Origin: Fodinicurvata sediminis DSM 21159
GTDB lineage: Bacteria; Pseudomonadota; Alphaproteobacteria; Kiloniellales; DSM-21159
DNA length: 64,000 nt
NCBI RefSeq assembly: GCF_000420625.1
Contig: NZ_ATVH01000014.1
Coordinates: forward strand, 470,348 to 534,347
Direction of reading: 5' to 3'
Under the pieces are notes generated by a model. It made no database searches and had not been told where the DNA came from. It saw only the letters and a list, made by a program, of their open reading frames with translations. Within the stretch, counting starts at the first letter, position 1. Each line of letters begins with the position of its first letter. Positions 17,289-58,582 of the stretch are shown here, piece after piece. The position numbers and the translations under genes were made by a program.

Positions 17289-17365
17289 GCGGGCGCGTAG
17301 CTCAGCGGGAGAGCACTACGTTGACATCGTAGGGGTCGCTGGTTCAATCCCAGCCGCGCCCACCA
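17289..17365 (+). tRNA. tRNA-Val (anticodon GAC), CCA encoded
   Basis: GCGGGCGCGTAGCTCAGCGGGAGAGCACTACGTTGACATCGTAGGGGTCGCTGGTTCAATCCCAGCCGCGCCCACCA. Cloverleaf with anticodon loop tTGACAt, T-arm GGTTCAATCC, 77 nt. Confidence 0.9.
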
Positions 17366-17390
17366 TATATTTCAAGGACTTATCATACTT

Positions 17391-17452
17391 TTTTCACCGC
17401 AGGGTTCTCGCTCGTCGCGATTTCGGCATTTTCACCGCAGTTCTCACCGCAG
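17391..17452 (+). repeat. tandem short direct repeats (TTTTCACCGCAG x2 + TCTCACCGCAG) immediately 3' of tRNA-Val
   Basis: Read directly: ttttcaccgcag at 17391 and 17429, tctcaccgcag at ~17442. Non-coding, and sits at the tRNA boundary of the AT-richer segment. Confidence 0.6.
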
Positions 17453-17793
17453 TCTGTTGCAGCCGTCTGAACACGTTCCAGGGACTTTCTCTTGCGAGTT
17501 TTACGCGCTGTCAGCGGAACATGGTCCATGTACTGAGATTGGGAGAAAGCTGCACCAGTGATGGTATAGGGGAGTTGTCAGGCCGTTCTGAACAGAGGGG
17601 CTAAACTGGTGAGGGAAGGAAGCCTGGCTGGCCGCTATAAAGAGGGAAAAGCTGTTCTCCGAATACCGTTCGGACGAACGCATAGGAATGCGAATGGCGG
17701 CTCAACAACCCCGAACTCCAGTCGCAATAAAGCAACTAAAGAAGTGGGTTAAATGCTACATAGGCTGATTGCCCAGGACAGCCCCTGGACATT

Positions 17794-18723
17794 TCAGTAG
17801 CTTTGCTCTTGGAGCCAATCGCGATATCGGATGACCCCTTCATGGATTGATAGTTGCGGCTTGAACGCGAGCTCAGTCTTGATCCGCGTAGGGTCCAGTT
17901 GGCCCTGGTACAGATCTCCGGTATCCGCACTTTCATCAAGCACGACCTCAATGTCAGGCAAAGCATTTTGGAGCGTTTCGCAGACGTCCTTGAGCTGTAA
18001 AAAACGATCACTGCTCAAGTTATAAACCAGCGATGGTGCAGACTTCGCGTCAAGAGCGGCGATAACGCCCCTGACCACATCGTCAACGTATAGGTAGTGG
18101 CACGGAAAATCAGCCGGCCCAGGAATTACGATTTTCTCGCCCCTCAATCCGCTCTTGAGGGCTTCTCGAATCATGCATGCCGTCCGTCGTCCCGGGCCAT
18201 AGACCCAACCTATGCGCAAAGCCAGGCCTTCGAGCCCATGCTGATAGCGATACCCTGCCAGCAGGTGTTCACCAGCTGCCTTGCTGCCCCCATAAACATC
18301 TGTGGGAAAGAGCGGACACTCTTCTGTTATTGGCCCTTCGGAGGTCGGTCCATATGCAGCAATTGAGGAACAGTATATAAAGCGCCGCACCCCATGAATG
18401 CGTGCCGCTTCCAAAAGATTTGCAGTTCCGGTTATATTAGTTTCACAGATCCAGTATGGATTATCATTTGACACCATCGGACCGGATATTGCGCCGCAAT
18501 GTATCAAGGCATCAGCGTTACTCGACTTAAGTATTGCATGCGCGCGCAGACTATCTGTCAGCTCGGCAGCATAGCTTAGGACGTTGTGATGATTAAATTT
18601 CACCTCATCACGATCAAGGGCAATCACCTTAAAACCACGTTCAGCAAGTGCCCGGATCAACGGCCTCCCTATCAAACCTCCGGCACCCGTAACTACTACT
18701 GTTTTCGTCATTTGCATTACCAT
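17794..18723 (-). CDS. NAD-dependent epimerase/dehydratase (extended SDR family)
   Basis: TGAGGLIGRPLIRAL glycine-rich NAD motif, YGGSK catalytic YxxxK. Sits in a visibly lower-GC segment. Confidence 0.8.
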   Translation of the reverse strand: MVMQMTKTVVVTGAGGLIGRPLIRALAERGFKVIALDRDEVKFNHHNVLSYAAELTDSLRAHAILKSSNADALIHCGAISGPMVSNDNPYWICETNITGTANLLEAARIHGVRRFIYCSSIAAYGPTSEGPITEECPLFPTDVYGGSKAAGEHLLAGYRYQHGLEGLALRIGWVYGPGRRTACMIREALKSGLRGEKIVIPGPADFPCHYLYVDDVVRGVIAALDAKSAPSLVYNLSSDRFLQLKDVCETLQNALPDIEVVLDESADTGDLYQGQLDPTRIKTELAFKPQLSIHEGVIRYRDWLQEQSY

Positions 18724-18824
18724 TTATTAATAGCTGCTTACTAAGTGCATGATTCGAAAAGAATTGTGTGATTTCAGTTCGTTGTGGATTCCACGTTGTG
18801 CTGAGAAACAGATGTGACCGTAAT

Positions 18825-19130
18825 ATGTGGACCCAAACCACTCGTTTGAAGTATGACCGCAGTGCCTTGCGGCATGCAAGTGACGTCACCGATGCCAAAT
18901 GGGAACTGATCGCACCGTAACTGCCCAAACTGCTCTCTCTTGAGCAGCCGCACGCCCCCAGAACGCATTCAGTTACGACTGAATCGTTGGTTGATTTTGA
19001 CCTTGGCCCTAAGCTTAGGGCCAAGGTCACGAAGACCCGGCGCGCAATCACCTCTATCTTCGATAGCGAACCCGCATTATCCAGAACAGCCCCGATAATG
19101 AACGAATGGGTCCTGCGGCCAGGCAATGTA
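18825..19130 (+). pseudogene. decayed IS5-family transposase remnant
   Basis: ATG at 18825 gives MWTQTTRLKYDRSALRHASDVTDAKWELIAP* (32 aa). This resembles the conserved IS5/IS427-group transposase N-terminus (..YPSDLTDAEWALIEPLLP..). Reading continues out of frame (LPKLLSLEQPHAPRT...) with stops, and no intact transposase follows. Confidence 0.4.
18998..19029. repeat. perfect 32-bp palindrome
   Basis: tgaccttggccctaag|cttagggccaaggtca is a perfect 16+16 inverted repeat inside the IS remnant. A second hairpin-forming IR (attcagt-n-actgaat) lies at ~18966..18985. Confidence 0.7.
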
Positions 19131-19190: not shown

Positions 19191-19748
19191 ATGGTCGGAT
19201 CGGGTACGCGGTTTTGCGGCGGAGTGAATTGGTTCATGAAAAGTGAGGGGGATATCCAGAAGTTGCAATCGAGCCGGAGAACTCATCAACTTATCGGAGC
19301 CGGGGTTGCCGCTGGCGTCATCTCGGCATTCGTGAAGTCAGGCGTGGAGACGCTGTTACCCCCCAGATTGCCGAACGTGACTCCCCCGCCCATCAGCCTG
19401 CTCGAACGCCTCGGCTTCGATGCGACGTCAATGACCTACCACTTCTCGGACCAAGTCGTGAACTGGGGCGGAAACGGGGTGCATATTCTGTTCTCGGTGG
19501 TGATTGCCGTGATCTATTGCCTGCTCGTCCATGCCAACACCATCTTTCGCGTATGGCAGGGGATTCCTTTTGGTTTGGCCATGGGTTTGGGGGCACACCT
19601 TATCGTGCTTCCGATCATCGGTGTGGGTCCAATGTTCTGGAATATCCCGTTCGAAGGGTATGTCTCGGAAATCGTCGGCACGATATTCTGGATCTGGACG
19701 ATCGAATGCGTTCGACGTGCCATCCTGGCCGACAGCCAGTCATACTGA
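19191..19748 (+). CDS. YagU-family (DUF1440-like) inner membrane protein
   Basis: ~185 aa with 3-4 hydrophobic helices and an overall YagU-like pattern. True start may be the internal Met at ~19236. Confidence 0.5.
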   Translation: MVGSGTRFCGGVNWFMKSEGDIQKLQSSRRTHQLIGAGVAAGVISAFVKSGVETLLPPRLPNVTPPPISLLERLGFDATSMTYHFSDQVVNWGGNGVHILFSVVIAVIYCLLVHANTIFRVWQGIPFGLAMGLGAHLIVLPIIGVGPMFWNIPFEGYVSEIVGTIFWIWTIECVRRAILADSQSY

Positions 19749-19905: not shown

Positions 19906-20703
19906 ATGACAGGAGACAAGTGGTTCATGCCCCCACCCGCCGGCAGGGGGTCACGGCACACACGTCTGCGGCTGTTCTGCTTCCCCTTTGCCGGGGGCGG
20001 GGCCGCAGTCTATCGGTCCTGGCAGGACAAGCTGCCTGAAGAAATCGAGGTGCGCCCGGTCTGCCTGCCCGGCCGTGAACAGCGTTTCGGCGAAGCGGCG
20101 TTCGAAGCCATCGACGATGCGGTCGCCGCACTGATCGATGCCATTCGCCCCATGGCGGCCACGCCTTACGCCTTCTTTGGCTATTCCATGGGGGGCATCA
20201 TCGCGCACCATCTGGCTTGCCGTCTCATGGCTGATGGCGCGCCCCTTCCCGCACATCTCTTCATTGCGGCCCTGCGCGGTCCGAACATGACAGCACCGCG
20301 CCGACAGCTTCATTCCCTGCCATCGGATGACTTCTGGTCCGAGGTCGCCGCATATGGCGGAACACCCGCCGAAATCCTCGAAAGCAGCGAGTATCGCACC
20401 CTGTTCGAGCCTTCCCTGCGCGCCGATTTCAAGCTTGCGCAAACGGCCTCCTCGGCCGATCTCCCCCAACTGGCGTGCCCGATCACGGCTTTCGGGGGCA
20501 CCGATGACAGCAACCCTGCACCGACGGATCTGGATGGCTGGCGGCAGGCAACAACAGGGCGGTTCGAGAAGCACATCTATCCCGGTGGGCATTTCTTCAT
20601 GGCCCAGAACGAGGTGCCGATGCTCGAGCTCATCGCGACAAAACTCGGCTGTCCGCCGGTTGCGGGTGGACAGGAAAGCTACTCCCGGACTTCGTCGAAC
20701 TGA
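19906..20703 (+). CDS. type II (editing) thioesterase, alpha/beta hydrolase
   Basis: LFCFPFAGGGAAVYRSW...FGYSMGGIIAHHLA...GGHFF are the classic TEII motifs (GxSxG = GYSMG); ~260 aa. Confidence 0.85.
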   Translation: MTGDKWFMPPPAGRGSRHTRLRLFCFPFAGGGAAVYRSWQDKLPEEIEVRPVCLPGREQRFGEAAFEAIDDAVAALIDAIRPMAATPYAFFGYSMGGIIAHHLACRLMADGAPLPAHLFIAALRGPNMTAPRRQLHSLPSDDFWSEVAAYGGTPAEILESSEYRTLFEPSLRADFKLAQTASSADLPQLACPITAFGGTDDSNPAPTDLDGWRQATTGRFEKHIYPGGHFFMAQNEVPMLELIATKLGCPPVAGGQESYSRTSSN

Positions 20704-22334
20704 CCATCCCGGACATGATAGACCCGGTCTGCGACATGAAACCACCGGTCATCATGGGTGACACAGATCAGGATCTTGCCTTGGTCACGCAGGCTGGGCA
20801 GGATTTCCTCATAGAAAATGGCCCGAAAATGCGGATCCTGGTCCGCCGCCCACTCATCGAGAACCAGGATTGGCTTCTCCTCCAGTTGCGCGACGATCAG
20901 AGCCAGGCGCTTCCTCTGCCCCTGGGAGAGTGCGGTGGTCGAGAATGCGTTGTCCTCAAGCGCAACCTTGTGCTCGACCTCCATCTGGTGGATCAGGGCA
21001 TCGACACGCTCGGGATCGACCGGATCGATGCCATAGAGTTCGCCAAACAGGTGATATCCCGAAAGCACTGTCGCGAACTGATCACGATATGACTGCAACC
21101 GGTCAACAGGCACGGCTATGTCGTTCACGGTGATTTCGCCGCTGTCCACCGCGCGCAGGCCGGTCAGCAGAGCAATGATCGTGGATTTCCCGGCGCCATT
21201 CCCACCTGTAATGAACGTGATTTCACCGCCTTTGAAACCTGCATTCAGAGGACCGACACCGAAGCCTCCGGTTGGTCCCGGATAGGTGAAGTGCACATCC
21301 TTGAGCGCGATTTCCCGGATATCCGAAAGGCTATCCGCGACAGGGTCGGAATGTCCGCTAAGCTCCGTGGTGATACCGCCCCCTACTTCGCGCTGTTTTT
21401 CCAAGGCGTCGCCAAGCCGGTTCTCGAGTTCGGTGATCTTCGAGATCGCCGCGTCGGCATCGTTGAAACTCGGCACCGCCATAATGGTCGATCCGATCGG
21501 GCCCAGAAGAAACAGGGTGGCCGTTGCCGTTTGCACGGCAACATCATGATAGTCCGTCGTGAAGTTCGGGACGATGAACACCATCGCGGCCATCATGAAA
21601 TAGAAGGCCAGCTGGATACTGGCCGTCTCACGCGCCCACTGGGCCTTGGTCGCCGACTTGGTGTCCCGCGCCCGCCCCGAACGCTCATGCAGCTGTGCCA
21701 GCAGCGCATCACGCCGCAGGCTGTTCATCTTGACCTCCTTGAAGCCATCCAGAAGGTCGCTCAGCCCGCCGAACAGCTGGCCTTCGTCCTCCACGGCGGC
21801 GCGGGTAGCGGCGCTGATCCCGCGGACGCGATGCAGATGAATGCCGACAGACAGGACGGCCAGCACGCCCACGATGACGAAGGCGAACAGCGACAGCCAC
21901 GCCAGATAGAGACTGACAAAGACGATTAGCACCAGTTGCTGAACGCCGTTCAGCATCATCGGCAAGGAATTCGAGATGGTCTGCATCTCCTGTGTCAGGG
22001 CGGTCTGGACCGGCCCCTGGCCAACGGAGTCCAGAACCTCGGGACCGGATTTGCGCACACGGTCGAACAGGTTCAGCCGGAATTGGTGCAGCACCCGTTC
22101 GACCTCGGCCGAAACGAGAACATCGGACTTGTGCTGCGCCCAGATGAAGCCCAGCAAGGAAACCGCCATCAGGCTCATCAAGCGCGGGCTGACCTCGCGG
22201 TTCTGAGCCTGCTCGGAGGCAAGGTTGACGATCACCAGAACCATGGTTGTCGAGATCGCCGCCATGACCAGCAGCGCCATGACGGTTCTGAGGTCGATCC
22301 GGGCCCGGGACCGGAGAATGTCGAACAACCGCAT
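20679..22334 (-). CDS. cyclic-peptide/siderophore export ABC transporter, fused permease-ATPase (SyrD/PvdE/YojI family)
   Basis: 551 aa: N-terminal ~6 TM, then Walker A GGNGAGKST, signature LSQGQRKRL, Walker B ILVLDEWAADQD. Confidence 0.85.
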   Translation of the reverse strand: MRLFDILRSRARIDLRTVMALLVMAAISTTMVLVIVNLASEQAQNREVSPRLMSLMAVSLLGFIWAQHKSDVLVSAEVERVLHQFRLNLFDRVRKSGPEVLDSVGQGPVQTALTQEMQTISNSLPMMLNGVQQLVLIVFVSLYLAWLSLFAFVIVGVLAVLSVGIHLHRVRGISAATRAAVEDEGQLFGGLSDLLDGFKEVKMNSLRRDALLAQLHERSGRARDTKSATKAQWARETASIQLAFYFMMAAMVFIVPNFTTDYHDVAVQTATATLFLLGPIGSTIMAVPSFNDADAAISKITELENRLGDALEKQREVGGGITTELSGHSDPVADSLSDIREIALKDVHFTYPGPTGGFGVGPLNAGFKGGEITFITGGNGAGKSTIIALLTGLRAVDSGEITVNDIAVPVDRLQSYRDQFATVLSGYHLFGELYGIDPVDPERVDALIHQMEVEHKVALEDNAFSTTALSQGQRKRLALIVAQLEEKPILVLDEWAADQDPHFRAIFYEEILPSLRDQGKILICVTHDDRWFHVADRVYHVRDGQFDEVRE

Positions 22335-22336
22335 GG

Positions 22337-23989
22337 TCAGATCCTCCCGCGTGCATCGTCAGCCTCGAGTTCAACAAGTTTGCCGGTCTCAAGATGCAAA
22401 CGACGGTCCGGAACATCGAAGTAATGATCGTCATGCGTAACCGCGATGATCGTGGTGCCACGCCTTTTCAGTTCGGGCAGGATCTCGTGATAGAACTTCT
22501 TGCGGAACTGCGGATCCTGGTCGGCCGCCCATTCGTCCAGGACAATAATCGGGCGATGCTCCAGGATCGCCGTAATCAGGCCCAGCCGTTTGCGTTGTCC
22601 GGCCGACAGGTCGATTGTTGTATAGCGCCCATCCTGAATGCTGGTGGCATGGGCCATCTCGAAGCGTTCAAGCCAATAGGCGGCTTCCTCAGGATCAATC
22701 CCATCAATGCCATGCAGATCGGCAAACAGATGGGAGTCCGAGAACACCGTGGCGATCAGGTTGCGATAGGGTGCGATGCTTTGCGGTCCCAACTGAAGCT
22801 GGTCGATCCTGATCGTCCCAGACACCGGCCGGTAAAGCCCGGTCAGCAGCTTGACCAGTGTCGATTTCCCCGCTCCATTGCCCCCAGTTACAAACAGAAG
22901 CTCCCCGCGCTCGATGGAGAGATCGAGGGGACCAAGCACGAAGCCGTGTCGCGGATCGCGACCGGGGTAGGTGAAGGTCACCTGGTCAAAGGTGATGCGG
23001 TTGAACTCGGACGGCAGGGCCGCAGTCCCCTCATCGGCGATCGGTTCGCTGATGGTCGAAAGATCCTTCGACAGTGCCGCCATGCGCTGTGCGGATTGTT
23101 CGGCCAGGCCGAGGACAGTCATGGACTGCACGATGATGCTGATGGGCCCGATCATGAAAAGGACCGCCGTGACGATCTTCGAGATATCGGTGCCAAGGCT
23201 TGCCGTATAGACTGGCACGACAAATACGATCACGGCCAGCAGGACATAGAAGGCCGAAATGCCCATGATCATCTGGCGCGATATCAGGCGATGGGCGGTC
23301 TGGCCGATTTCCATCTTGTCTTCCGACGTACTCGCGAAGGATGCATAGAGCGTGTCGCTGCGCCGCGACCACATCCGGACTTCCTTGATGCCGAAGAACA
23401 GGTCGGCAATCTTCCCGAACAGGACCCCTTCGATCCGGTGAAGCTCGCCGAACCAGTCCGACAGAGTCCGACCCATGCGCAGGTAGATAACGATGCCGAC
23501 CCCGATCACGACAACGATCAGGAAAAAGGCCAGCGCGGAAAGCCAGAAGACATAGACCATCACTGCAACCAGCAACAGCAGGCTGCGGAAGGTCATTCCG
23601 ATCAGGTGCGAGTTCTGGGAAATGACCTGAGTGCTTTGGGTGATGCTGTCATAAAGCCGGGCCTGCCCGAATGTTTCGAGTTGGGCGAAATCGGCCGCCG
23701 CGATCTGCCCGAAAAGCCGCTTGCGAACCTTGTCGATGCCATCCTCGATCTGCCTGGCAATATTGCTCAGCAGATAGACCTCGGCCAGGAAATAGACGAC
23801 GGAAATAAGAATGAAGATGCCGGCCAGAAGCCAGTTGACGCGGTCCAGGCCGTTGTCGCTGATTTCCTCGGCTGCAGAGTTCACGATGCCAAGAAGGGCG
23901 GCACTTCCGATACCGGAAAGCGTTCCCGCAATGGCCAGCCGGAGCATGAACCTGTTATCGCCCCAGGATAACAATTCCAGCAACTTCAT
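22337..23989 (-). CDS. cyclic-peptide export ABC transporter, fused permease-ATPase (paralogue, likely heterodimer partner)
   Basis: 550 aa with the same architecture: GGNGAGKST, LSAGQRKRL, IVLDEWAADQD. Stop is 2 nt from the downstream paralogue. Confidence 0.85.
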   Translation of the reverse strand: MKLLELLSWGDNRFMLRLAIAGTLSGIGSAALLGIVNSAAEEISDNGLDRVNWLLAGIFILISVVYFLAEVYLLSNIARQIEDGIDKVRKRLFGQIAAADFAQLETFGQARLYDSITQSTQVISQNSHLIGMTFRSLLLLVAVMVYVFWLSALAFFLIVVVIGVGIVIYLRMGRTLSDWFGELHRIEGVLFGKIADLFFGIKEVRMWSRRSDTLYASFASTSEDKMEIGQTAHRLISRQMIMGISAFYVLLAVIVFVVPVYTASLGTDISKIVTAVLFMIGPISIIVQSMTVLGLAEQSAQRMAALSKDLSTISEPIADEGTAALPSEFNRITFDQVTFTYPGRDPRHGFVLGPLDLSIERGELLFVTGGNGAGKSTLVKLLTGLYRPVSGTIRIDQLQLGPQSIAPYRNLIATVFSDSHLFADLHGIDGIDPEEAAYWLERFEMAHATSIQDGRYTTIDLSAGQRKRLGLITAILEHRPIIVLDEWAADQDPQFRKKFYHEILPELKRRGTTIIAVTHDDHYFDVPDRRLHLETGKLVELEADDARGRI

Positions 23990-24092: not shown

Positions 24093-25202
24093 TCAATGAG
24101 ATTCTCCGGGACTGGCCCCTTCACTGTTCACGACCAGCACCCTGCTTCGAGCGGTCAGCCCGAATTTTCCGCGCAACTCCCTGTTCTTCGCTGCATGCCA
24201 CAATCCGGCAATTCCGGAAATGCCGGTATCCCATGTATCCAAGGGTGCATCTCTTAGAAGGCCACAGCACAGCTGTTCCTGCACCTGAGCTGCCGTCGTA
24301 TCATCGATTGCAAGACTGCCCGCACAGACACTCCGAAGAATCTCAAGAGCCGGCAGGCTTGGACAGCCACAGGAAAGTCCCACCATGCGGGTTGATAGCG
24401 TTCCTGGCAGACGGGTCAGCCGGCCGCTCTCCAGGCTGGCTTTCACACAGGCAGCCGTTTCGGGTTCGACCGAATAGACAATCGGCTTGACCCCACTTTC
24501 CTGCCAGAAGCCGATGGCGCAGCCTGCCGCCATTCCGCCCACACCGCATTGCAGAAACAGGCTGTCGATCGCGACAGACTCTGAAGCGATTTGACGCGCA
24601 CACTCCACTCCCAAAAGGGCATAACCGGCCATGATATCGCGTGTGACCTCAAGGTTCCCACGGTAATCGGTATCGGTGACCAGGATCACGTTTGGCGCGT
24701 TCGCATTTTCCTCGGCGGCGGAGACGGCGTCATCATAGGTTCCATCCACCTTGACGATCTCGGCACCGCTTTCACGCAAGCGCTGTATCCGGGCCGTATC
24801 GACTTCGTTGCCGACGAAGATCCGGGCGCAACAGTTGAACTGTCTCGCCGCCCAGGCAAGCGCCAGCCCATGATTGCCGTCCGTTGCTGCAACCGCGATA
24901 TAGTCCCGGCAGCCAGGAGCTCCAGGATAGAGGCCAAGTTTCTGGAACTGCCGGCTCAGACCATAAGGCGCACCGAGAACCTTGACACCCCCCAACCCGA
25001 AACGCCTGCTTTCGTCCTTGATCCAGACCTCTCCCAGCGCCAGTTCGCGTGCAAGGCCGGGCGATGGCAACAGGGGGCTTGGCGCGTAATCCGGCCATGA
25101 GGAGATCTCCGTGACAGCTCGTCGAATCTCTGCAGGTATAACAACAGGGCTGTCAAAGCCACTCATGAGTTGCTCCGGAATGCAATCGACCTTAACAGCC
25201 AC
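24093..25202 (-). CDS. fold-type II PLP-dependent enzyme, diaminopropionate ammonia-lyase (DpaL/YgeX)-like
   Basis: WIKDESRRFGLGGVKVLGAPYG (PLP lysine) and ATDGNHGLALAWAA line up with DpaL KDESKRFGLNAFKMLGGAYA / TTDGNHGRGVAWAA; 369 aa. Confidence 0.65.
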   Translation of the reverse strand: MAVKVDCIPEQLMSGFDSPVVIPAEIRRAVTEISSWPDYAPSPLLPSPGLARELALGEVWIKDESRRFGLGGVKVLGAPYGLSRQFQKLGLYPGAPGCRDYIAVAATDGNHGLALAWAARQFNCCARIFVGNEVDTARIQRLRESGAEIVKVDGTYDDAVSAAEENANAPNVILVTDTDYRGNLEVTRDIMAGYALLGVECARQIASESVAIDSLFLQCGVGGMAAGCAIGFWQESGVKPIVYSVEPETAACVKASLESGRLTRLPGTLSTRMVGLSCGCPSLPALEILRSVCAGSLAIDDTTAAQVQEQLCCGLLRDAPLDTWDTGISGIAGLWHAAKNRELRGKFGLTARSRVLVVNSEGASPGESH

Positions 25203-25357
25203 TCTCGAGAACGAAAGCTATCGAGTTTGCAGCGACTGCCGGCAAACCTGACCGGAGGGAAGGGTCGAGTAAATGTCTGAAAGAATTTGTATTCCTTCAC
25301 AATGAATCTCGACGGTCAGTTGGCAATTCCCTAAGCTGTAACCTGCTGTGCAAACAT

Positions 25358-26650: not shown

Positions 26651-26658
26651 GCAACAGG

Positions 26659-27342: not shown

Positions 27343-27349
27343 GAGATAC

Positions 27350-31014: not shown

Positions 31015-31056
31015 CCGGACAAGCCCGACAAACCCAAGGCATCAGGACCTGACCCC

Positions 31057-31254: not shown

Positions 31255-31300
31255 CGTGCAATCGACCCTCCGCATGACGCATACGAAAGTGAAATGACGA

Positions 31301-49700: not shown

Positions 49701-52700
49701 AGCTTCACATGCAATGAAGCTGCGCGCCGATGCCTCATCCATTCGATGGCGGCGCAAGCTCCAGGACCCGCCGGGGGCTAGATACTGGCTGACTCCATCC
49801 GGATGTCCGGGGTCGCTCCTGAAGCGTAGGCGCAGTGCATGCTGGCGCTCTTCCAAGGCATGAAGCGCGCGCTGCAGGGCCTCGGCATCAACGGAACCAT
49901 CGATCTGGAGCGTTGCCGGAACCGAATAAACGGCAAGATCCGGCTGCATGCGCTGCAGGACCCAAAGCCGGGCCTGACCGCTTGAAAGCGGGAAGCGCTC
50001 GCCGCGTGCCCTGGGCAAGCTGCTAGAGCCCGTTGTCCCTCCCTGGCTATCCACAAGTGCCGCCAGGTTCGCAACTGTGCGTGACGTGAAGATATCCTGA
50101 AGCTTTGGACGGAAACCGGTTTCCTTTTCGATCAGGCCGGCAAGCCGCATGGCGATCAGGCTATGCCCGCCAAGGGCGAAGAAATCGGAAGCCGGCGTGA
50201 TCTCGTTACCGGCGAACAGGCTTTCAAACAGGGCGAGGACGAGCTGTTCTGAAGCGCTATTCGCAGTGGCTGCCTGTACCGGGGTGTCCTCGGCACTTGC
50301 GATCATGGAATGCAGCGCCTTGCGATCCACCTTGCCATTGGCATTGACCGGCAGGTGGTCCAGCACAACGACCCGTTCCGGGATCATGTACTCGGGAAGC
50401 GCGCGCGCCGCTGCGGCAATCCATGAATCGCGATGGTCGCAATCAGCGGCGATTGCAGCGCCAAGAAAGGCATCGGCACCTTTGCCCATAGTCAGGACGC
50501 AGATATTTCGGATGCCCTCCAATTCGGAGAACTTCTGCTCTACCGCCGCAAGCTCGATCCGGTGTCCACGGATCTTGACTTGGCCATCCCCGCGTCCACC
50601 GAATTCGATGGTGCCATCGCTACGCCAGCGGGCCCGATCCCCGGTTCTGTATAGCCGCTCCTCGGCGATATTGCCGTACTGCACGAAGGATCTGGCTGTT
50701 CGTTCGGGAGCGCCACTGTACCCCAGTGCCAGGCCATCACCCGCAGCATGAAGCGTGCCCCAGCAGTCGGTTGGCGCCACTTGGCTCCTGCTGTCCAGAA
50801 CGTAGACCCGGGTATTGCCGATTGGCCTGCCGATGGGGATGTTGCTGGCGGAAACATCCTGCCCGGTGATCCTGTGCGTGCAGGTGAATGTCGTGTTCTC
50901 GGTCGGGCCATAGCCGTTGATCAGCGTCAGATTGGGACAGGCCTGCATGACCTTCATGACATGCGCAGGGCTCAGCGCCTCTCCTCCGGTCATGAGGCGC
51001 TCCAAGGACGCGAAGGCTGTCGGAAGATCGTCGGCTATGCGGTTGAACAGGCTGGACGTCAGCCACAGGCTCGTCACCCCGCACGTATCAAGAGTGTCCT
51101 TCAGTGCGTTGGGATCGAATAGCGTATCATCCTCGATGACTTGAAGCCGCCCACCATTGAGAAGCGGCGCCCAGATCTCGAGCGTCGAAGCATCGAAGCC
51201 AAGAGACGCCGCTTGAGCGATCACATCCTCCGGCCCGAAAGGCAAAGCCACATTGTTCAGAACAAGGCGCGCAACAGCCCGGTTCGGCACCAGAACGCCC
51301 TTGGGCTTTCCGGTCGAACCCGAAGTGAACATGACATAGGCCAGGTCATGCCCCCTGCGCTTTGCAGGAACGGCGTCCCGTGCCCTGCCGTCCTGGTCCT
51401 CGCCACCGCCTTTCGGAAGCGACGTGACCTGGAAGCTGTCTTCAAGTTCGGACAGGCGCGCGCGTTCGCGCGGATCACATAGCAGTGTCCGCGCGTCGCA
51501 CTCGTTCATGAGGTCGGCAACCGTCCTGGCAGGCAGGGACCGGTCAATCGGCAGATAGGCCGCCCCATGCCAGACCAGACCCAGGATCGTAAGGATGCTG
51601 TCCAGACCACGCGCGGCGGCCAGGCCGACGGTCTCCCCCGCCCTGACGCCGCTTTCGTCGAGTTCCGCAGAAATCGCAGCCAGCCGGTTTCCCAGCTCAC
51701 GATAGGTGATCCGGGACCTGCCATCCTCAAGAGCCACCCGCTCAGCAGAATCCGGATGGTTGATGCGCTGTGCCAGCAGTTCGCCAAGACCGGAATCTCT
51801 TGGATAATCCGATTGCGTCGCGTTGAACGCCGTTTCCAGAAGGTGCTTTTCATCTGCCGGAATCAGGTCGACATCGCCGATCGGTTGCGAGGGATCCCTG
51901 GCAAGAGCGCAGGCAAAGTTCAGGAAACGATCCGTAAAACGTTTCACCCAGTCGACGCTGAAGGCGGCTGTTTGATGTTCCACCGCCAGATAGGTACCGG
52001 ATGCGAATTTGACCAGCGCGATCAGCAGCGGGAACTTCCCGGCGCCAACATCGATGTCGGTGACATCCTCCACGTCCTCATGAATTTCGATGACGCTGAC
52101 GGCATCGAACGGCAAATCGGCAGGGCCTTGCGCGTGTTTCGAGAGCCCCTGGATCAGGCGCGTAAGCGGATAGTCCTGCACATCCATAATCGAGAGGATT
52201 TCGCGCCCGACCTGCTTCAGCAGCACATCAAAACCTGCGTCCATATCAGGCGTAATGGCAATCGGCAGGACATTTGCAAAACAACCAAGCGCATGCAGGC
52301 TTTCGCGATCCGCACGCCCGGAAAACGGTAGGCCAAGACAGGCTGCGCCATCCTCTCTGTGGCGCGCGATGACTGCAATCACAAGTGCCATCCAAAGCGC
52401 TGATTGGGTCGCTTTCTCGGCATGGCGCGCTAGTGTCTCCAGCGCTTCGGCTTGGGCTGGTGTCAACTCGACCAGATGGCGTTTGGCCCGATCCTCCTTT
52501 TCCGCAAAGGGGTCGCTTGGCAAGCCCTCGGCCAGAAGCTGGTCGTACCGCTGTTCCCAGAATTCGACAGCCTTGCGTCCACGCTCGCCGGCCAGTTCCC
52601 GGTGAGCGCGCCGGGATAGAGCCTCGGCACTGGATGGGGTTTGCGGCTGCCCGCCTGATAGCTCCTCGAGCAGTTCCTTGCGCAACAACGCGATGGATTG

Positions 52701-53333: not shown

Positions 53334-56300
53334 TAAAGCGCCCCGTGCTCACGTCCTCGCGAGCCATTCGTCGTCAGAGCAGTCGACGCCCCGTCCGCAT
53401 GCGCTGTACGCTCAGAAAGGAATTTCGCCACAGCTTCTGGCGTCTGGTACTCAATCATCACCGAGGCCGGGACTTCGACCTTGAACACCTCGGAGATGCG
53501 TGACGCGATCCGCACCGCCAACAGGGAATCCCCGCCCAGGTCAGTAAAGTCCTGATCTGCCGTGATGCCCGAATTCCCGAACATCTCGCTCCAGATTCTA
53601 AGAACCTTGAAAAGATGCATCTGCTCCGCGGACGCGGTCTGTCCATCGTTGACGATTTCCGGAGTGCCCGTTTCCAGTGTGCCCGCCGTATCCTCGGCGC
53701 GCAGCGAAGCGGGATGCAGGCGCTCTTTGCCTGTCCGGCTCGACTGTTCAGCACTTGATCTCGCCCAATGGCGTCGCCGGTCAAATGCATAAGTCGGCAC
53801 CGGAATGCGACGCACCATGTCACTCGGCACGACAGTTCCGAAATCAAGCTTCACGCCCTGAACCCACATCTGCGCCAACGCGGTCTGCAGGGCGACGTGA
53901 CCGGCATCGACTTCACTGCCAGTTTGTTCTGACATTTGCCGTGGATGGGTTGCAATGCAGAGCTTGGCATCCGCACCGTTCGCGGCGGCGAGCCGGCAGG
54001 CGATGTCACCATGACCACAGTCCACCATCAGGGCTCCGGGCATGGCCGCCTGCAGTCCTTTGATGTTATCGGCGAAGCGGACCGAGTTGCGCATGTGCTG
54101 CACCCAGTAATCGGGATTGACCGCCTCAGCATCACGCAGCCACTGACCGGTCAGATTGGACTGTATCGGAATGCCGGGCGGGGACAACGCGATCTGGCCA
54201 ACAGCTTTCCGAAAGTCCGCGAGCACCGATTCCATCAAGGCGGAATGGAAGGCGCGTGAAACCATGAGCCGCCGTCCGACCTTGCCTTCTTGCTGCAGAC
54301 GCTTCTCGAAATCGTCGATCGCTTTGATCGAGCCGGAAACCACGCACTGCCGCGGGCTGTTGATCGCGGCAAGCGAGAGCTCTGGACCATGGGCCTCCAG
54401 AAGTGCTCCGACTTCCGCCTCACCGGCCGCGAGCGCATACATGGCACCAGGGTTTGTCGAGGCCATCAGCCGCCCGCGTATCACCATGAGACGCAAGGCA
54501 TCCTCGAACGACATGACACCGGCCAGGCAGGCCGCGACATATTCCCCGATGCTGTGCCCAGCCAGCGCGGCCGGTTGGACACCGCAGGCCATCAGGTGGC
54601 GGGCCATGGCATATTCACAAATGAACAGAGCCGGCTGCGCATGGTCGGTTTGCGCAAGACGTTCCGCAGATTCGGATGTCGGCTCAGTTGCAAGAAGCAG
54701 GGATCTGAGATCTTCAGGACCGGAAAAATGCGCTACAGTTTCACAGGCCTGATCGATCAGTTCGGCAGAGGCCGCGTCGGCAGAATGGAGCATGCGTGCC
54801 ATACCCGGTTGCTGCGCCCCCTGCCCCGGAAAGAGGAATGCGGTGATCGCCTCGCTGCTGTCCGCCAACCCTTCGACACGCGCAGGAGACTTCGCATCGG
54901 CAAGAGCCCAGCCGGCAGCTTGGATTGTCTTGGCAACGATGGCGGCACGGTAGGGATATTGTCGCCGCCTGGAAAGGCTGTAGGCCAGATCGCGAATATC
55001 GGCATCCGCCCCTTTGTGCGACAACCAAACAGATGTTCGCGCCATCAAGGATGTCAGCGCCCCCGGGGTGGCTGCGGAAAAACACAGCAAGTGGGGGATC
55101 GGATCGGCAATGCGCTCATCACGCGTTGTCGTTTCCGGGGCGGCTTCAAGAACGACATGCGCGTTGGTGCCGCCAATCCCGAAACTGCTGACACCCGCGC
55201 GAAGTGGTGTCGCTCCGTCCCCTGCCAACGCGACAGGCTGGCCGTTGATCTGGAAGGGCCCATCCTCAAGCGGCAGGCGCGGATTGGGCTCCTCGAAATG
55301 GCAGGTCGGCGGCAGCGTACGGTATTTCAGCGCCAGCAGCGCTTTGATGAGTCCGACCATTCCCGCCGCAGCATCCAGATGCCCGAAATTCCCCTTGACC
55401 GATCCCAGCCAGATTGGGGCTTTGCCTGATGTATCGCCGCTGCCGAAAACCTGATTGAGCGCCGATACCTCGATCGGATCGCCAAGAGGGGTTCCGGTGC
55501 CGTGCCCCTCGATGAAGCGGATGCTTTCCGGGGCGACCTTCCCATCGGCCAGAGCTGTCCGGATAGCACTGGCCTGGCCATTTGCAGTCGGGGCGCTGAA
55601 AGCCGCCTTCGCTGTGCCATCGTTGGAAAGCCCGACCCCCTTGATAACGCCATGAATGGTATCCCCGTCGGCGACGGCATCGCTTAGCTTTTTCAGGACA
55701 ACGACCGCGCCACCACTGGCGCCAACAACACCGTCTGAGCGATGGTCGAAGGGGCGGCATATACCACTGCGCGACCCGATTCCGCCTTCAGTGAAGTAGT
55801 ACCCACCTGAAGGCGCAAGCCCCAAGGAAGCAGCCCCCGCAAGGGCAACGCGGCACTGCCCCGCGCGCAGGGCCTGCACGGCAAGTGCAATGTTGACCAG
55901 ACCGGTTGAGCATGCGGTGGACGTGGACAGTGCCGGGCCAGTCAGGTTCAGCTTGTAGGCCAGCCGACTGGCCGCATAATCCTTGTCATTGGCGATTGCG
56001 AACCCGTACCGCACGGCCCCCGAACCCGTGCCCGCTTCTGCGCGGCCGAGAACATCGAGCATATAGCTGTTGAAACCAACGCCCACATAGACCCCAACCG
56101 GGCCGTCCTGCTCCGGCTGGCAGCCGCTGTCTTCCATGGCGGTCAACGCCGTCTCGAGCAGCAGGCGATGCTGCGGATCGGTTTCGCGCGCCTCCCGATC
56201 CGTCATGGAGAACAGGGTTGCATCAAAGGAATCCACGTCATCGAGAATGCCATGACGTGCGACAAAGGCCGGATCCTCCAGCTGTGAAGGATCCCCACCC

Positions 56301-58213
56301 AGGCTTTCCAGGCGGGCCGCATCGATCTCGCGAATCATGTCCGTCCCGCTTTCCAGCAGCGACCAAAGCGCATCGCGATCCTCTGCACCCGGCAGGCGGA
56401 TCCCCATGCCGACAATGGCGATGTCGGATGTATCGGTTTCAGCGCCCTCGGCCCGCTGTTTCGTGTCCAGATCCGCTAGAGGGATAGCCGGGCTCGCTTG
56501 CCCCAGAAGATAGCGCGCGAAATCCTTGACGGAAGGGTGCTCGAATATCTCGACGGATCTGATCTCGCGTCCGGCCAGTTTCGTCAGGGCAAACTGCGCC
56601 CGTGGAACGAGCAGAGAATGTGCACCGATTTCGAACAGATTGGCATCCACCGGGATATCATCACTCTGAAGGAGCTCGGCCCAGACAGCCTTGACCTTCT
56701 GCGTGAAATCACGCTCGGCCAGCTTGCCAACCGTTGAGTCTTGGGCCATACGCTCCTGTGAAGTCGGCGTCGTTGCCTGTACCGGAGGATCCTGCAGCTG
56801 TACCCCGCTACCCGCTACGATGCCACCGCCCGGACGCAGCTCTTCGCCCGCATCGCCGACCAGAGCCGCAAGGGCGGCTATCTCCTGCTCAGGATCCGCG
56901 ATGACGGCATCGAGGATATGGCGAAAGCATTCAGCGATTCTTACGACCGTTTCGTGTTCCAGGCGGTCGGCATTGTATTGCCAGATCAGTTCGGCTTCGT
57001 TCTCGGTTTCGCTGAGCGCTTGGGCAAAGTAGACCAGTCCAAGGTCATTGACTGGCGCGTTATAGATATTCATCCGCTTGGCTTTGGTGTCGTCAAACTC
57101 CAGCGGTGTCATCGAATCCAGGCTGTTGAAGAATGCCCCGCCGCCAAGGAGGCTGTGCCCCCCCAGGCGCGCCGCACGCATGCGTGCCGGCCCGAGACGA
57201 ATGTGACGGACATCCCGGCGCACACGTCCGAAGATATCCTTGGCCAGTTCCGAAATGCGTTGATGCTTGTTCAGGTCGATATCTAGGGGAACGACACAGG
57301 AAAAGGCACCGGGGGTATTCCGCTCGTCACGGCCGATCCGGTTCAGCATCGGCACAGTCAGGATGGGGTGACTTTCTCCTGAAATCTGGCCAAGCAGAAC
57401 TGCAAACGTGGCCATCATCAACGAAGGCGAAGAGGTGCCGGCTTTCTTGGCTGCACCGATAATGGCATCCAGCTCATCGCCGCTCAGACTTTGCGGGAAT
57501 TGCCTGTGGTGCGACTGCGCACTGTCTGGGCGCGCAGAAAAACGTGTGACCGGCCTGCCGTCTGCCAGGCGATACTTCCAATAGGCCAGGTCCCGTGTGT
57601 AGGCATCACTCTCGGGATAGGCCGCGTCCGATAGGATGAAGTTCCGATAGGAGCGGAAGGAACAGTCCGGAATCGCCGTATTCGAACCCAGCGCGCGATA
57701 GATCTCCTGCACGCGCTCGGCCAGCAGATGCCCGGCAAAACCGTCGCAAACAAGGTGGTGGTACACCCGAACCCACCAACAGACCTTGTCCTCGAGACGG
57801 AACAGGCGGTGACGGCAAAGAAACCCGTTTTCGGGATCAAGAAGACGCGTACGGGTGGCTTCGAGTTCCTGATAGGCAGCCGCCTCGACATCATCGGCAA
57901 ATCGAAGATCGATTACGCTGAAATCGGTGGCACGAACTTCCGAAGCAAAATGCTGCCTCACGTCTCCATCGACGTTGGAAAAGCGCAGTCGAAGGGCATC
58001 GTTCTCGCGGTCTGCCTTTACAATGGCCTGCCAGAGCCTGTCGACATCAAGGTTGCCCTCGAATTGGATGACATTGCAGATATTGTAGCTGGACGGATCT
58101 TGCTCTTTTTTCCAGTCGAGCCAGATACCTGCCTGTATTGTTGTCAGTGCGAACTGTTCATTCGTGTCACTATTTGCTGAGTCACTGGATTCCTGCGAAT
58201 TGATCGCTTTCAA
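53333..58213 (-). CDS. hybrid loading/extension subunit (1626 aa): C - T - KS - AT - ACP, no A domain
   Basis: C domain with HHLVCDG (aa ~151-157), carrier EIGAHSL (~530), KS TACSTG/EGHGTGT/GHLDAAAG, AT GQGAQ/GHSIGE/RAFHS (malonyl-type motifs), ACP LGGDSL. Stop overlaps the megasynthetase start (TAATG). Confidence 0.9.
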   Translation of the reverse strand: MKAINSQESSDSANSDTNEQFALTTIQAGIWLDWKKEQDPSSYNICNVIQFEGNLDVDRLWQAIVKADRENDALRLRFSNVDGDVRQHFASEVRATDFSVIDLRFADDVEAAAYQELEATRTRLLDPENGFLCRHRLFRLEDKVCWWVRVYHHLVCDGFAGHLLAERVQEIYRALGSNTAIPDCSFRSYRNFILSDAAYPESDAYTRDLAYWKYRLADGRPVTRFSARPDSAQSHHRQFPQSLSGDELDAIIGAAKKAGTSSPSLMMATFAVLLGQISGESHPILTVPMLNRIGRDERNTPGAFSCVVPLDIDLNKHQRISELAKDIFGRVRRDVRHIRLGPARMRAARLGGHSLLGGGAFFNSLDSMTPLEFDDTKAKRMNIYNAPVNDLGLVYFAQALSETENEAELIWQYNADRLEHETVVRIAECFRHILDAVIADPEQEIAALAALVGDAGEELRPGGGIVAGSGVQLQDPPVQATTPTSQERMAQDSTVGKLAERDFTQKVKAVWAELLQSDDIPVDANLFEIGAHSLLVPRAQFALTKLAGREIRSVEIFEHPSVKDFARYLLGQASPAIPLADLDTKQRAEGAETDTSDIAIVGMGIRLPGAEDRDALWSLLESGTDMIREIDAARLESLGGDPSQLEDPAFVARHGILDDVDSFDATLFSMTDREARETDPQHRLLLETALTAMEDSGCQPEQDGPVGVYVGVGFNSYMLDVLGRAEAGTGSGAVRYGFAIANDKDYAASRLAYKLNLTGPALSTSTACSTGLVNIALAVQALRAGQCRVALAGAASLGLAPSGGYYFTEGGIGSRSGICRPFDHRSDGVVGASGGAVVVLKKLSDAVADGDTIHGVIKGVGLSNDGTAKAAFSAPTANGQASAIRTALADGKVAPESIRFIEGHGTGTPLGDPIEVSALNQVFGSGDTSGKAPIWLGSVKGNFGHLDAAAGMVGLIKALLALKYRTLPPTCHFEEPNPRLPLEDGPFQINGQPVALAGDGATPLRAGVSSFGIGGTNAHVVLEAAPETTTRDERIADPIPHLLCFSAATPGALTSLMARTSVWLSHKGADADIRDLAYSLSRRRQYPYRAAIVAKTIQAAGWALADAKSPARVEGLADSSEAITAFLFPGQGAQQPGMARMLHSADAASAELIDQACETVAHFSGPEDLRSLLLATEPTSESAERLAQTDHAQPALFICEYAMARHLMACGVQPAALAGHSIGEYVAACLAGVMSFEDALRLMVIRGRLMASTNPGAMYALAAGEAEVGALLEAHGPELSLAAINSPRQCVVSGSIKAIDDFEKRLQQEGKVGRRLMVSRAFHSALMESVLADFRKAVGQIALSPPGIPIQSNLTGQWLRDAEAVNPDYWVQHMRNSVRFADNIKGLQAAMPGALMVDCGHGDIACRLAAANGADAKLCIATHPRQMSEQTGSEVDAGHVALQTALAQMWVQGVKLDFGTVVPSDMVRRIPVPTYAFDRRRHWARSSAEQSSRTGKERLHPASLRAEDTAGTLETGTPEIVNDGQTASAEQMHLFKVLRIWSEMFGNSGITADQDFTDLGGDSLLAVRIASRISEVFKVEVPASVMIEYQTPEAVAKFLSERTAHADGASTALTTNGSRGREHGAL

Positions 58214-58582
58214 AAGCCTTGCCCCTCAACAGCGAACTGTCATTGGTATTCTTTCACCCCTGCATTGTGGTCCACAGGGTTGTTCCTTGGTCTCATGCCT
58301 GCAGCAGAGCGGAGAGCAATTTCGTGGCAAATATGCCCTTCATTGATACGCTATTGCAAGCTGCAACCTGATCTGTTTTGGCAAAATCTGCGCGAGGTCA
58401 ATTACCGCCACAGGAGTTGTTTCTTCCGATATTCTGAGTGTGATTGCGCCAACGACACGCCCCTTGGCACACTATTGTGAACACCGGCATGTGTTCTCCT
58501 TCCGGCGAACTGGTCGCAGTGCACATCTTTCGTGAAGTCGATCTGAATGGTCTGCTGGCTGCCCGGCTTCAACCGCGTGTGT

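What the first reader, a model, noticed from the sequence alone, without database searches (positions are those of the whole stretch)
17289..58582. Accessory island at tRNA-Val carrying a ~38 kb hybrid NRPS-PKS gene cluster
Backbone synteny (cpdR, tRNA-Val) stops at the tRNA 3' end. It is followed by an AT-richer stretch with tandem repeats, an SDR epimerase, an IS5 transposase remnant and a YagU-like gene. Then comes a complete-looking biosynthetic cluster with a TEII, two peptide exporters, a PPTase and three translationally coupled synthetase genes with 4 A domains, 2 KS, 1 cis AT and a TE. No integrase remains, so this is an old or decayed integration. The domain order predicts a tetrapeptide/diketide hybrid with one N- or O-methylation. 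I do not recognise this exact subunit and domain order as any characterised pathway.
Basis: partly seen in the sequence, partly recalled or inferred. Interest (0 to 1): 0.8.

Follow-up and report, generated by a model that had tools for sequence, protein, structure and literature searches.

The report
Known thalassospiramide gene cluster, Fodinicurvata sediminis
The big peptide/polyketide gene cluster is real, but it is the Fodinicurvata sediminis copy of the already studied thalassospiramide (protease-inhibitor lipopeptide) assembly line, lacking one loading domain, and it shows no sign of classical integration at the neighbouring tRNA gene.

Summary
The sequence features are confirmed. tRNA-Val(GAC) lies at 17291-17365. 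A type II thioesterase (TEII), two cyclic-peptide ABC exporters and an Sfp-type PPTase are present. Three translationally coupled synthetase genes on the minus strand (34305-58213) carry 4 A, 2 KS, 1 AT, 1 MT and a TE.

The claim that the cluster is unrecognised is wrong. The window is Fodinicurvata sediminis (proteins WP_022728593.1 and WP_022728591.1). The genes are colinear orthologues of TtcA/B/C/D of Thalassospira (54-69% identity) and of TtmA/B of Tistrella mobilis (43-52%), the thalassospiramide assembly lines validated by heterologous expression. The A-domain codes match: Val, Ser, Val, Tyr. "D-V-W" is the Ser code, not an aromatic one. The only architectural difference from Ttc is the missing A1a domain, so module 1 is C-T, as in Ttm. 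A review reports that a Fodinicurvata thalassospiramide cluster was described in 2016 with no product detected.

The island idea is partly supported. Synteny with two sister species ends at the tRNA 3' end, and no orthologue of TtcA or TtcC turned up from them. The cluster and about 10 neighbouring genes are syntenic with Thalassospira. However, there is no integrase and no att repeat, the SDR gene is shared with F. halophila, and the right end is undefined.

Interest is low: this is a known system.

The parts
17291..17365 (+). tRNA-Val(GAC). This is the last element colinear with F. fenggangensis.
   Evidence: ARAGORN. The blastn alignment to L002 ends at window 17366.
17366..17793 (.). Non-coding, lower-GC spacer with three TCACCGCAG copies (17394-17452). 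It is unique to F. sediminis; F. halophila has hipBA in this position.
17794..18723 (-). SDR/NAD-dependent epimerase. It is shared with F. halophila (88% nt identity), so it is probably not part of any insertion.
   Evidence: Pfam PF01370; blastn to L001; GC3 0.50.
18757..18918 (+). Probable IS5-family (DUF4096) left-end remnant with an in-frame stop. Synteny with F. halophila ends here, at 18737.
   Evidence: Translation. No Pfam hit. About 70% nt match to pNGR234a next to a DUF4096 fragment. The support is weak.
19191..19748 (+). DUF1440 (YagU-family) membrane protein.
   Evidence: Pfam PF07274, E = 2e-44.
19906..20703 (+). Type II thioesterase. The inferred role is editing of mis-primed carrier domains.
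   Evidence: Pfam PF00975, E = 5e-42.
20679..23989 (-). Two cyclic-peptide export ABC transporters (551 and 550 aa).
   Evidence: TIGR01194 scores 299 and 322 bits against a cut-off of 286.
24093..33383 (.). Block that travels with ttc in other genera. It holds a PALP enzyme (diaminopropionate ammonia-lyase-like), a TAXI-TRAP binding protein, a GNAT, a 669-aa MFS transporter, a hypothetical protein, DUF697, SPFH/Band7 and a second DUF697.
   Evidence: Pfam and NCBIfam. The gene order is the same in MAG L083 and in Thalassospira sp. HF15 L086.
33493..34263 (+). Sfp-type PPTase, the TtcD counterpart.
   Evidence: Pfam ACPS and 4PPT_N. It is 49% identical to the gene in the same position in Thalassospira HF15. 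The role of TtcD is described in bioRxiv 10.1101/560987.
34305..37799 (-). TtcC orthologue (WP_022728591.1): A6 with embedded MT, then T6 and TE. It is predicted to add N-Me-Tyr and to close the macrolactone.
   Evidence: Pfam. Identity is 64-69% to Thalassospira and 52% to TtmB. The code DGVDVGAVSK is identical to Thalassospira A6. Motifs are intact.
37800..53333 (-). TtcB orthologue (5177 aa): TubC-type dock, C2-A2(Val)-T2, C3-A3(Ser)-T3, KS4-DH4-KR4-T4a-T4b (AT-less), C5-A5(Val)-T5, C6.
   Evidence: Pfam on overlapping pieces. Identity is 61% to T. xianhensis TtcB over 3335 aa, 60% to T. profundimaris, and 44% colinear to TtmA.
53333..58213 (-). TtcA orthologue (WP_022728593.1, 1626 aa): starter C1a, T1a with no A domain, then KS1b-AT1b-T1b.
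   Evidence: Pfam. 100% match to the F. sediminis protein. Thalassospira residues 447-982 (A1a) have no counterpart.
58383..58582 (.). 200 nt with no match in the 90% relative. That relative carries a 3.66-kb segment with an extra C-A-T gene at this position.
   Evidence: blastn; gene table of L082.

Best explanation
Window 34.3-58.2 kb, together with the PPTase at 33.5-34.3 kb, is the Fodinicurvata sediminis member of the thalassospiramide (ttc/ttm-type) hybrid NRPS/trans-AT-PKS family.

The mechanism below is inferred from the characterised homologues.
1. The TtcD-like PPTase primes the eight carrier domains.
2. The starter C domain of TtcA attaches a fatty acyl group to the amino acid on T1a. 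T1a has no A domain of its own, so it is loaded by A3 (Ser) or A2 (Val) of the next protein. This is what happens in Ttm and in A1a-inactivated Ttc.
3. PKS module 1b (KS-AT-T) optionally adds a C2 unit.
4. Modules 2 and 3 add Val and Ser.
5. The AT-less module 4 (KS-DH-KR-T-T) is served by a housekeeping acyltransferase. It converts Ser into the vinylogous residue 4-amino-5-hydroxy-pent-2-enoate.
6. Pass-back to module 2 may add extra Ser-C2-Val units.
7. Module 5 adds Val and module 6 adds N-methyl-Tyr.
8. The TE closes the 12-membered lactone. Its enone is the protease-inhibiting warhead.

The cluster is accessory within the genus. It probably arrived by old horizontal transfer as a block of at least 34 kb, not by a recognisable tRNA-targeted integrase event.
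For: Identity of the window:
- TtcA-like is 100% identical to WP_022728593.1 and TtcC-like is WP_022728591.1, both F. sediminis.

Colinear orthology:
- TtcA is 54-55% identical to Thalassospira TtcA in two blocks flanking the absent A1a.
- TtcB is 61% identical over 3335 aa to T. xianhensis, 60% to T. profundimaris, and 44% over 4094 aa to TtmA.
- TtcC is 64-69% identical to Thalassospira, 52% to TtmB and 51% to the deposited 'TtbB'.

Domain order and specificity:
- Domain order equals the published Ttc order except for A1a.
- Specificity codes are DALWMGGTFK, DVWHFSLVDK, DAFFMGATFK and DGVDVGAVSK. They match Thalassospira and Ttm almost residue for residue.

Integrity:
- The T-domain serines are intact, as are the KS Cys/His, AT GHSIG, KR, MT and TE GWSFG motifs and the C-domain His motifs. 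The family-typical DHLCFDG motif in C2 is also present.
- There are no frameshifts over 24 kb, and the genes are coupled.

Precedent for the A-less module 1:
- TtmA module 1 is also C-T. Ttm is productive in a heterologous host (bioRxiv 10.1101/560987).
- A1a-dead Ttc still makes Ser-first analogues.

Literature:
- A Fodinicurvata ttc-type cluster has been reported (PMC5577590).

Accessory status:
- The only named TtcA and TtcC orthologues in Fodinicurvata are from F. sediminis.
- F. halophila has other genes after tRNA-Val.
- The flanking block is syntenic with Thalassospira, a different family.
- GC3 is 0.66-0.69 in the ttc genes against 0.75-0.85 in core genes.
Against: - No product has been shown. 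The review says no thalassospiramide was detected from Fodinicurvata.
- AT1b reads RAFH instead of HAFH.
- I could not read the primary 2016 paper. Which Fodinicurvata strain and which architecture it described is therefore inferred.
- Absence from the sister species rests on database searches, on one 9-kb flank, and on a contig that ends 1.4 kb after the tRNA. It does not rest on whole-genome alignment.
- Overall GC and tetranucleotide usage of the synthetase genes do not differ from the right flank.
Confidence: 0.9

Rival explanations
1. The cluster is a decaying, non-functional relic. Loss of A1a, and possibly other regulatory or partner genes, has silenced it, which would explain why no compound was found.
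For: - A1a is missing, with possible remnants of its N-terminus in the 23-aa linker.
- AT1b carries an H-to-R change in the HAFH motif.
- A review reports no detectable production in Fodinicurvata.
- The 90% relative has an extra C-A-T gene that F. sediminis lacks.
Against: - About 24 kb of reading frame is open, with coupled start and stop codons.
- All checked catalytic motifs are intact and match functional homologues.
- Ttm works with the same A-less module 1, and A1a-dead Ttc still produces.
- The A-less architecture is conserved at 90% identity in a second organism, which suggests selection.
Confidence: 0.25
2. The region is a classical genomic island integrated site-specifically into the 3' end of tRNA-Val and covering 17.3-58.6 kb. 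Its integrase has since been lost.
For: - The synteny break with F. fenggangensis falls exactly at the tRNA 3' end.
- A different cargo (hipBA) sits at the same tRNA in F. halophila.
- Decayed genes follow the tRNA in F. fenggangensis.
- There is a lower-GC stretch and an IS-like remnant.
Against: - No copy of the tRNA 3' end occurs elsewhere in the window, even with 3 mismatches allowed.
- None of the ORFs scanned between 17.3 and 34.3 kb hits an integrase family.
- The SDR gene just after the tRNA is shared with F. halophila at higher identity than the backbone.
- The SQR gene to the right lacks a close sister-species orthologue, so 58.58 kb is not a demonstrated backbone junction.
- The 17.4-24 kb, 24-34 kb and 34-58 kb parts differ in composition and conservation, which suggests a mosaic.
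Confidence: 0.15
3. The cluster is a new, uncharacterised NRPS-PKS pathway making a tetrapeptide/diketide unrelated to known products.
For: Identity to the nearest characterised proteins is below 70%, and the subunit split and domain set are not identical to Ttc or Ttm.
Against: - Alignment is colinear over all three proteins.
- Specificity codes, the trans-AT module, the tandem T domains, the MT embedded between A2 and A3, and the adjacent PPTase are the same as in Ttc and Ttm.
- The flanking genes are syntenic with Thalassospira.
Confidence: 0.03

Closest known systems
Ttc thalassospiramide assembly line of Thalassospira (TtcA-D; strain CNJ-328 was characterised by heterologous expression and domain knock-outs, bioRxiv 10.1101/560987)
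   Same: - Three-gene split plus an adjacent PPTase.
- All modules 1b-6 are present, including cis-AT PKS module 1b, AT-less KS-DH-KR-T-T module 4, A5, C6 at the end of TtcB, and A(MT)-T-TE.
- A codes are Val, Ser, Val, Tyr.
- The downstream block DUF697-SPFH-DUF697-MFS-TAXI-PALP is shared.
- Identity is 54-69%.
   Different: - A1a (about 535 aa, Phe/Tyr-activating) is absent, so Phe- or Tyr-first 'B-like' products are not expected.
- AT1b reads RAFH, not HAFH.
- The upstream flank is different.
- TEII and two ABC exporters lie 10 kb away.
Ttm thalassospiramide assembly line of Tistrella mobilis KA081020-065 (TtmA/TtmB on megaplasmid pTM1, NC_017957.2)
   Same: - Module 1 is A-less (C-T) and is loaded by a downstream A domain.
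- Modules 2-4 and the terminal A(MT)-T-TE protein are the same.
- The Ser code is identical and the Val and Tyr codes are near-identical.
   Different: - Ttm has two genes, no PKS module 1b, no A5 and no clustered PPTase.
- It is plasmid-borne in an unrelated context.
- Identity is only 43-52%.
tRNA-associated genomic islands (integrase-mediated)
   Same: The variable DNA starts at the 3' end of a tRNA gene, and the content differs between species.
   Different: There is no integrase, no flanking direct repeat and no defined distal end. The content is a mosaic.

Membership tests
Thalassospiramide (Ttc/Ttm-type) NRPS/trans-AT PKS | Module order: starter C-[A]-T, [KS-AT-T], C-A-T, C-A-T, AT-less KS-DH-KR-T(-T), C-[A]-T, C, then a separate A(MT)-T-TE | tested here: met
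   Pfam on whole proteins and overlapping pieces. The published order is taken from bioRxiv 10.1101/560987. A1a is absent, as in Ttm.
Thalassospiramide (Ttc/Ttm-type) NRPS/trans-AT PKS | Full-length colinear sequence homology to TtcA/B/C and TtmA/B | tested here: met
   Identity is 54-69% to Thalassospira and 43-52% to T. mobilis pTM1 proteins.
Thalassospiramide (Ttc/Ttm-type) NRPS/trans-AT PKS | A-domain specificity: Val (A2), Ser (A3), Val (A5), Tyr (A6) | tested here: met
   Ten-residue codes were extracted against GrsA-PheA. The reference fragment was recalled from memory and reproduces the known code DAWTIAAICK. The codes match Thalassospira and Ttm.
Thalassospiramide (Ttc/Ttm-type) NRPS/trans-AT PKS | Module 4 lacks an AT, and no discrete AT gene is in the cluster | tested here: met
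   No Acyl_transf_1 hit in TtcB. No AT was found among the genes annotated between 17 and 60 kb.
Thalassospiramide (Ttc/Ttm-type) NRPS/trans-AT PKS | Catalytic residues intact in every domain | tested here: met
   Motif and alignment checks. The one deviation is RAFH in AT1b.
Thalassospiramide (Ttc/Ttm-type) NRPS/trans-AT PKS | Produces thalassospiramide lipodepsipeptides | not testable with these tools
   A review states that no production was detected in Fodinicurvata (PMC5577590).
tRNA-integrated genomic island | Synteny with relatives breaks at the tRNA 3' end | tested here: met
   The alignment to F. fenggangensis ends at 17366. F. halophila differs after the tRNA.
tRNA-integrated genomic island | Integrase gene next to the tRNA | tested here: not met
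   None of the ORFs scanned between 17.3 and 34.3 kb hits an integrase family.
tRNA-integrated genomic island | Direct repeat of the tRNA 3' end at the distal boundary | tested here: not met
   The 25-nt 3' end occurs only once with up to 3 mismatches. No suitable direct repeat was found.
tRNA-integrated genomic island | Composition distinct from the backbone | tested here: inconclusive
   GC and GC3 are lower at 17.4-19.9 kb and 24-34 kb. The ttc genes have backbone-like GC but GC3 of 0.66-0.69 against 0.75-0.85.
tRNA-integrated genomic island | Absent from close relatives, with an identifiable empty site | tested here: inconclusive
   No named Fodinicurvata orthologues apart from F. sediminis. 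No empty site was recovered. The 90% relative has the same right junction.

The most novel reading that the evidence does not exclude
F. sediminis carries a natural 'intermediate' thalassospiramide line: A-less module 1 as in Ttm, but with PKS module 1b and A5 as in Ttc. Its product spectrum would be restricted to Ser- or Val-first analogues, optionally with an N-terminal statine-like unit. In this reading the neighbour block of about 10 genes (PPTase, DUF697, SPFH, DUF697, MFS, GNAT, TAXI, PALP), conserved across two bacterial families, is an unrecognised functional companion of the pathway in native hosts, for example for export, self-protection or regulation. The extra C-A-T gene in the 90% relative would be an alternative loader.
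Probability: 0.2. Interest if true: 0.35.

Novelty: already known. Interest (0 to 1): 0.2.

Why it matters
Thalassospiramides are nanomolar calpain inhibitors. Their assembly lines are a textbook case of non-colinear biosynthesis, with trans loading, module skipping and pass-back. The F. sediminis copy is a naturally A1a-less version and so mirrors a laboratory knock-out. It is useful for comparison but opens no new question. For genome scanning, the lesson is that a naive colinear reading of the domains gives the wrong product. A tRNA-adjacent position also does not by itself show integrase-type insertion.

Tried and rejected
- Megablast of the 24-kb synthetase region against plasmids found nothing useful, only 70-105-nt NRPS motifs.\n- Exact look-up of the TtcC ORF failed. 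It was later explained: the protein is a member of a 90% cluster and corresponds to WP_022728591.1.\n- The primary papers PMC5207150 and PMC3563429 are not held.\n- Look-up of P0129 failed.\n- T. profundimaris proved a poor reference, because its TtcC is cut by Tn3.\n- I searched SQR homologues to find the sister-genome right flank. No Fodinicurvata sister orthologue appeared, so the right boundary stayed undefined.\n- Pfam on the putative IS5 peptide gave nothing. The DNA search gave only weak, unannotated matches.\n- TRF found no tandem repeat near the tRNA.\n- The promoter and terminator scan upstream of ttcA found nothing.\n- I tested whether the extra C-A-T gene of the 90% relative is the displaced module 1a. 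I rejected this: it is only 26-30% identical to any Ttc module.\n- Tetranucleotide correlation does not separate the ttc genes from the right flank.
Full report
**Observation**

The window contains one tRNA gene, tRNA-Val(GAC), at 17291-17365. It is preceded by cpdR at 16794-17162, which passes its NCBIfam cut-off, and by leuBDC. Downstream genes were annotated with Pfam and NCBIfam:
- SDR epimerase, 17794-18723 (-).
- DUF1440/YagU protein, 19191-19748 (+).
- Type II thioesterase, 19906-20703 (+).
- Two ABC proteins, 20679-23989 (-). Both pass the TIGR01194 'cyclic peptide export' cut-off.
- PALP enzyme, TAXI-TRAP binding protein, GNAT, a 669-aa MFS transporter, two DUF697 genes around an SPFH/Band7 gene.
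- Sfp-type PPTase, 33493-34263 (+).

Three large minus-strand genes follow:
- 53333-58213 (1626 aa): C-T-KS-AT-T.
- 37800-53333 (5177 aa): TubC-dock-C-A-T-C-A-T-KS-DH-KR-T-T-C-A-T-C.
- 34305-37799 (1164 aa): A with an embedded methyltransferase, then T and TE.

The gene junctions read TAATG and TGAATG.

Some smaller claims are weaker:
- The 'tandem repeats' are three TCACCGCAG copies within 59 nt. TRF does not report them.
- The 'IS5 remnant' has no Pfam hit. Its support is a roughly 70% nucleotide match to an unannotated stretch of pNGR234a that runs into a DUF4096 fragment.

**Source organism**

The first synthetase is 100% identical to WP_022728593.1 of Fodinicurvata sediminis, on a 551,509-bp contig. 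The third is WP_022728591.1. The backbone left of the tRNA is 85% identical at the nucleotide level to F. fenggangensis and 82% to F. halophila.

**What the cluster is**

Homologues of the terminal protein led to Thalassospira (64-70% identity) and to 'TtbB' of Tistrella bauzanensis. These are the thalassospiramide systems. The published Ttc line is as follows (bioRxiv 10.1101/560987):
- TtcA: C1a-A1a-T1a-KS1b-AT1b-T1b.
- TtcB: C2-A2-T2-C3-A3-T3-KS4-DH4-KR4-T4a-T4b-C5-A5-T5-C6.
- TtcC: A6-MT6-T6-TE.
- TtcD: the PPTase.

Direct comparisons with the window proteins:
- The TtcA-like protein aligns to T. xianhensis TtcA in two blocks. Residues 7-450 match 2-446, and 474-1600 match 983-2094, at 54-55% identity. 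The roughly 535-aa A1a domain has no counterpart.
- The TtcB-like protein is 61% identical over 3335 aa to T. xianhensis and 60% to T. profundimaris.
- It is 44% identical and colinear with TtmA of T. mobilis pTM1, which lacks only the A5 core.
- The TtcC-like protein is 64-69% identical to Thalassospira and 52% to TtmB.

The A-domain specificity codes were extracted against a GrsA-PheA fragment. I recalled that fragment from memory, and it reproduces the known code DAWTIAAICK. The codes, all:

| Domain | Window code | Closest homologue code | Predicted substrate |
|---|---|---|---|
| A2 | DALWMGGTFK | DALWLGGTFK (Thalassospira) | Val |
| A3 | DVWHFSLVDK | identical in Ttc and Ttm | Ser |
| A5 | DAFFMGATFK | DAFFMGGTFK (Thalassospira) | Val |
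| A6 | DGVDVGAVSK | identical in Thalassospira | Tyr |

Catalytic motifs are intact and match the functional homologues. This covers all eight carrier serines, KS Cys/His, AT GHSIG, KR, the MT motif I glycine, TE GWSFG, and the family-typical DHLCFDG motif of C2. The only deviation seen is RAFH in place of HAFH in AT1b. TtmA module 1 is also C-linker-T. The F. sediminis line is thus an intermediate architecture, with Ttm-like module 1 plus Ttc-like module 1b and A5.

**Mechanism (inferred from the homologues)**

1. The PPTase primes the carriers.
2. Starter C1a N-acylates the residue on T1a. T1a must be loaded by A3 (Ser) or A2 (Val), as shown for A1a-dead Ttc and for Ttm.
3. Module 1b optionally extends by C2.
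4. Modules 2 and 3 add Val and Ser.
5. The AT-less module 4 builds the vinylogous Ser residue, with possible pass-back to module 2.
6. Modules 5 and 6 add Val and N-Me-Tyr.
7. The TE closes the 12-membered lactone.

Without A1a, Phe- or Tyr-first analogues should be absent. The review PMC5577590 states that a thalassospiramide cluster was found in Fodinicurvata and that no product was detected. Whether the cluster is silent or dead is open. The intact frames and motifs argue against decay, as does the same A-less TtcA in a 90%-identical relative.

**Island question**

Evidence for an accessory region:
- Colinearity with F. fenggangensis ends exactly at 17366. Decayed, unrelated genes and a contig end follow there.
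- F. halophila has tRNA-Val, then hipBA, a frameshifted SDR, and unrelated AspDH/AldDH/Liv genes.
- The only named TtcA and TtcC orthologues in the genus are from F. sediminis.
- ttcA-D and the next roughly 10 genes are syntenic in the MAG GCA_051747365.1 and in Thalassospira sp. HF15, which belongs to a different family.
- GC3 of the ttc genes (0.66-0.69) is below that of core genes (0.75-0.85).

Evidence against a classical tRNA-integrated island:
- There is no integrase and no repeat of the tRNA 3' end.
- SDR is shared with F. halophila at 88% nucleotide identity. Homology ends at 18737, next to the IS-like remnant.
- The right flank (cydAB-SQR-DUF5368) adjoins ttcA in the 90% relative too.
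- SQR has no close sister-species orthologue, so 58582 is not a proven backbone junction.
- Overall GC and tetranucleotide usage of the ttc genes resemble the flanks.

The region looks like a mosaic variable locus holding an old horizontally acquired block.

**Verdict**

The cluster is real and complete-looking, but it belongs to a known, experimentally dissected family. The literature has already noted such a cluster in this genus. The accessory nature is plausible. Integration at the tRNA is not shown. Interest is low.

Noticed in passing
L082 4350-8013 (Logan SRR25395514); corresponds to window 58383-58582: A roughly 90%-identical relative carries an extra, divergently transcribed stand-alone C-A-T NRPS gene (1088 aa) and a 66-aa HTH-like ORF between DUF5368 and ttcA. 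F. sediminis has 200 unmatched nt at this position. The extra module is only 26-30% identical to any Ttc module.
   Followed up: partly
window 24093-34263; L083 12102-22036; L086 13566-23504: The block PPTase-DUF697-SPFH/Band7-small ORF-DUF697-hypothetical-MFS-(GNAT)-TAXI binding protein-PALP next to ttcC keeps the same order in F. sediminis, in a MAG and in Thalassospira sp. HF15 (49-82% aa identity). This holds although the genes next to ttcC were dispensable in the heterologous host.
   Followed up: partly
window 54190-54210 region (TtcA aa ~1320): The AT1b specificity motif reads RAFH instead of HAFH, both here and in the 90% relative. The catalytic His and the malonyl-type Phe are kept.
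   Followed up: partly
window 58962-60257: The best hits of the sulfide:quinone oxidoreductase-like gene are 92% (an uncultured relative) and then 75% or less, from Hyphomicrobiales. No sister-species orthologue was seen, so the variable region may extend beyond the reported end.
   Followed up: partly
L085 13040-16569; L086 1-9988: Thalassospira shows several cluster variants. In T. profundimaris (JPWH01) TtcC is truncated by a Tn3-family transposon. In strain HF15 the first gene is 5355 aa (C, AT, C, A...), and a separate 240-aa C-domain fragment precedes TtcC.
   Followed up: no
L001 7330-8604; L089 5178-6685: HipA/HipB toxin-antitoxin genes sit between tRNA-Val and SDR in F. halophila. A HipA pair also lies about 4 kb upstream of ttmA on Tistrella plasmid pTM1. 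This is probably coincidence.
   Followed up: no
window 34305-37799 (TtcC aa 98-450): The methyltransferase is embedded between A-domain core motifs A2 and A3, not at the more usual A8-A9 position. This placement is conserved in all TtcC-type proteins aligned.
   Followed up: partly
one search hit list (P0019-P0098): Stand-alone A(MT)-T-TE proteins of the same architecture, at 41-57% identity, occur in distant taxa: Magnetovirga, Telmatospirillum, Pleomorphomonas, Nitrospirillum, Chlorobium, Acidobacteria and Desulfovibrionaceae. This hints at a wider family of related assembly lines.
   Followed up: no
window 53183-53333: An automatic gene call for TtcB in the Logan assembly starts 150 nt downstream (5127 aa). 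The longer ORF, which overlaps the ttcA stop, encodes a TubC-type docking domain (aa 15-65, E = 6e-9) and matches the start used in relatives.
   Followed up: yes
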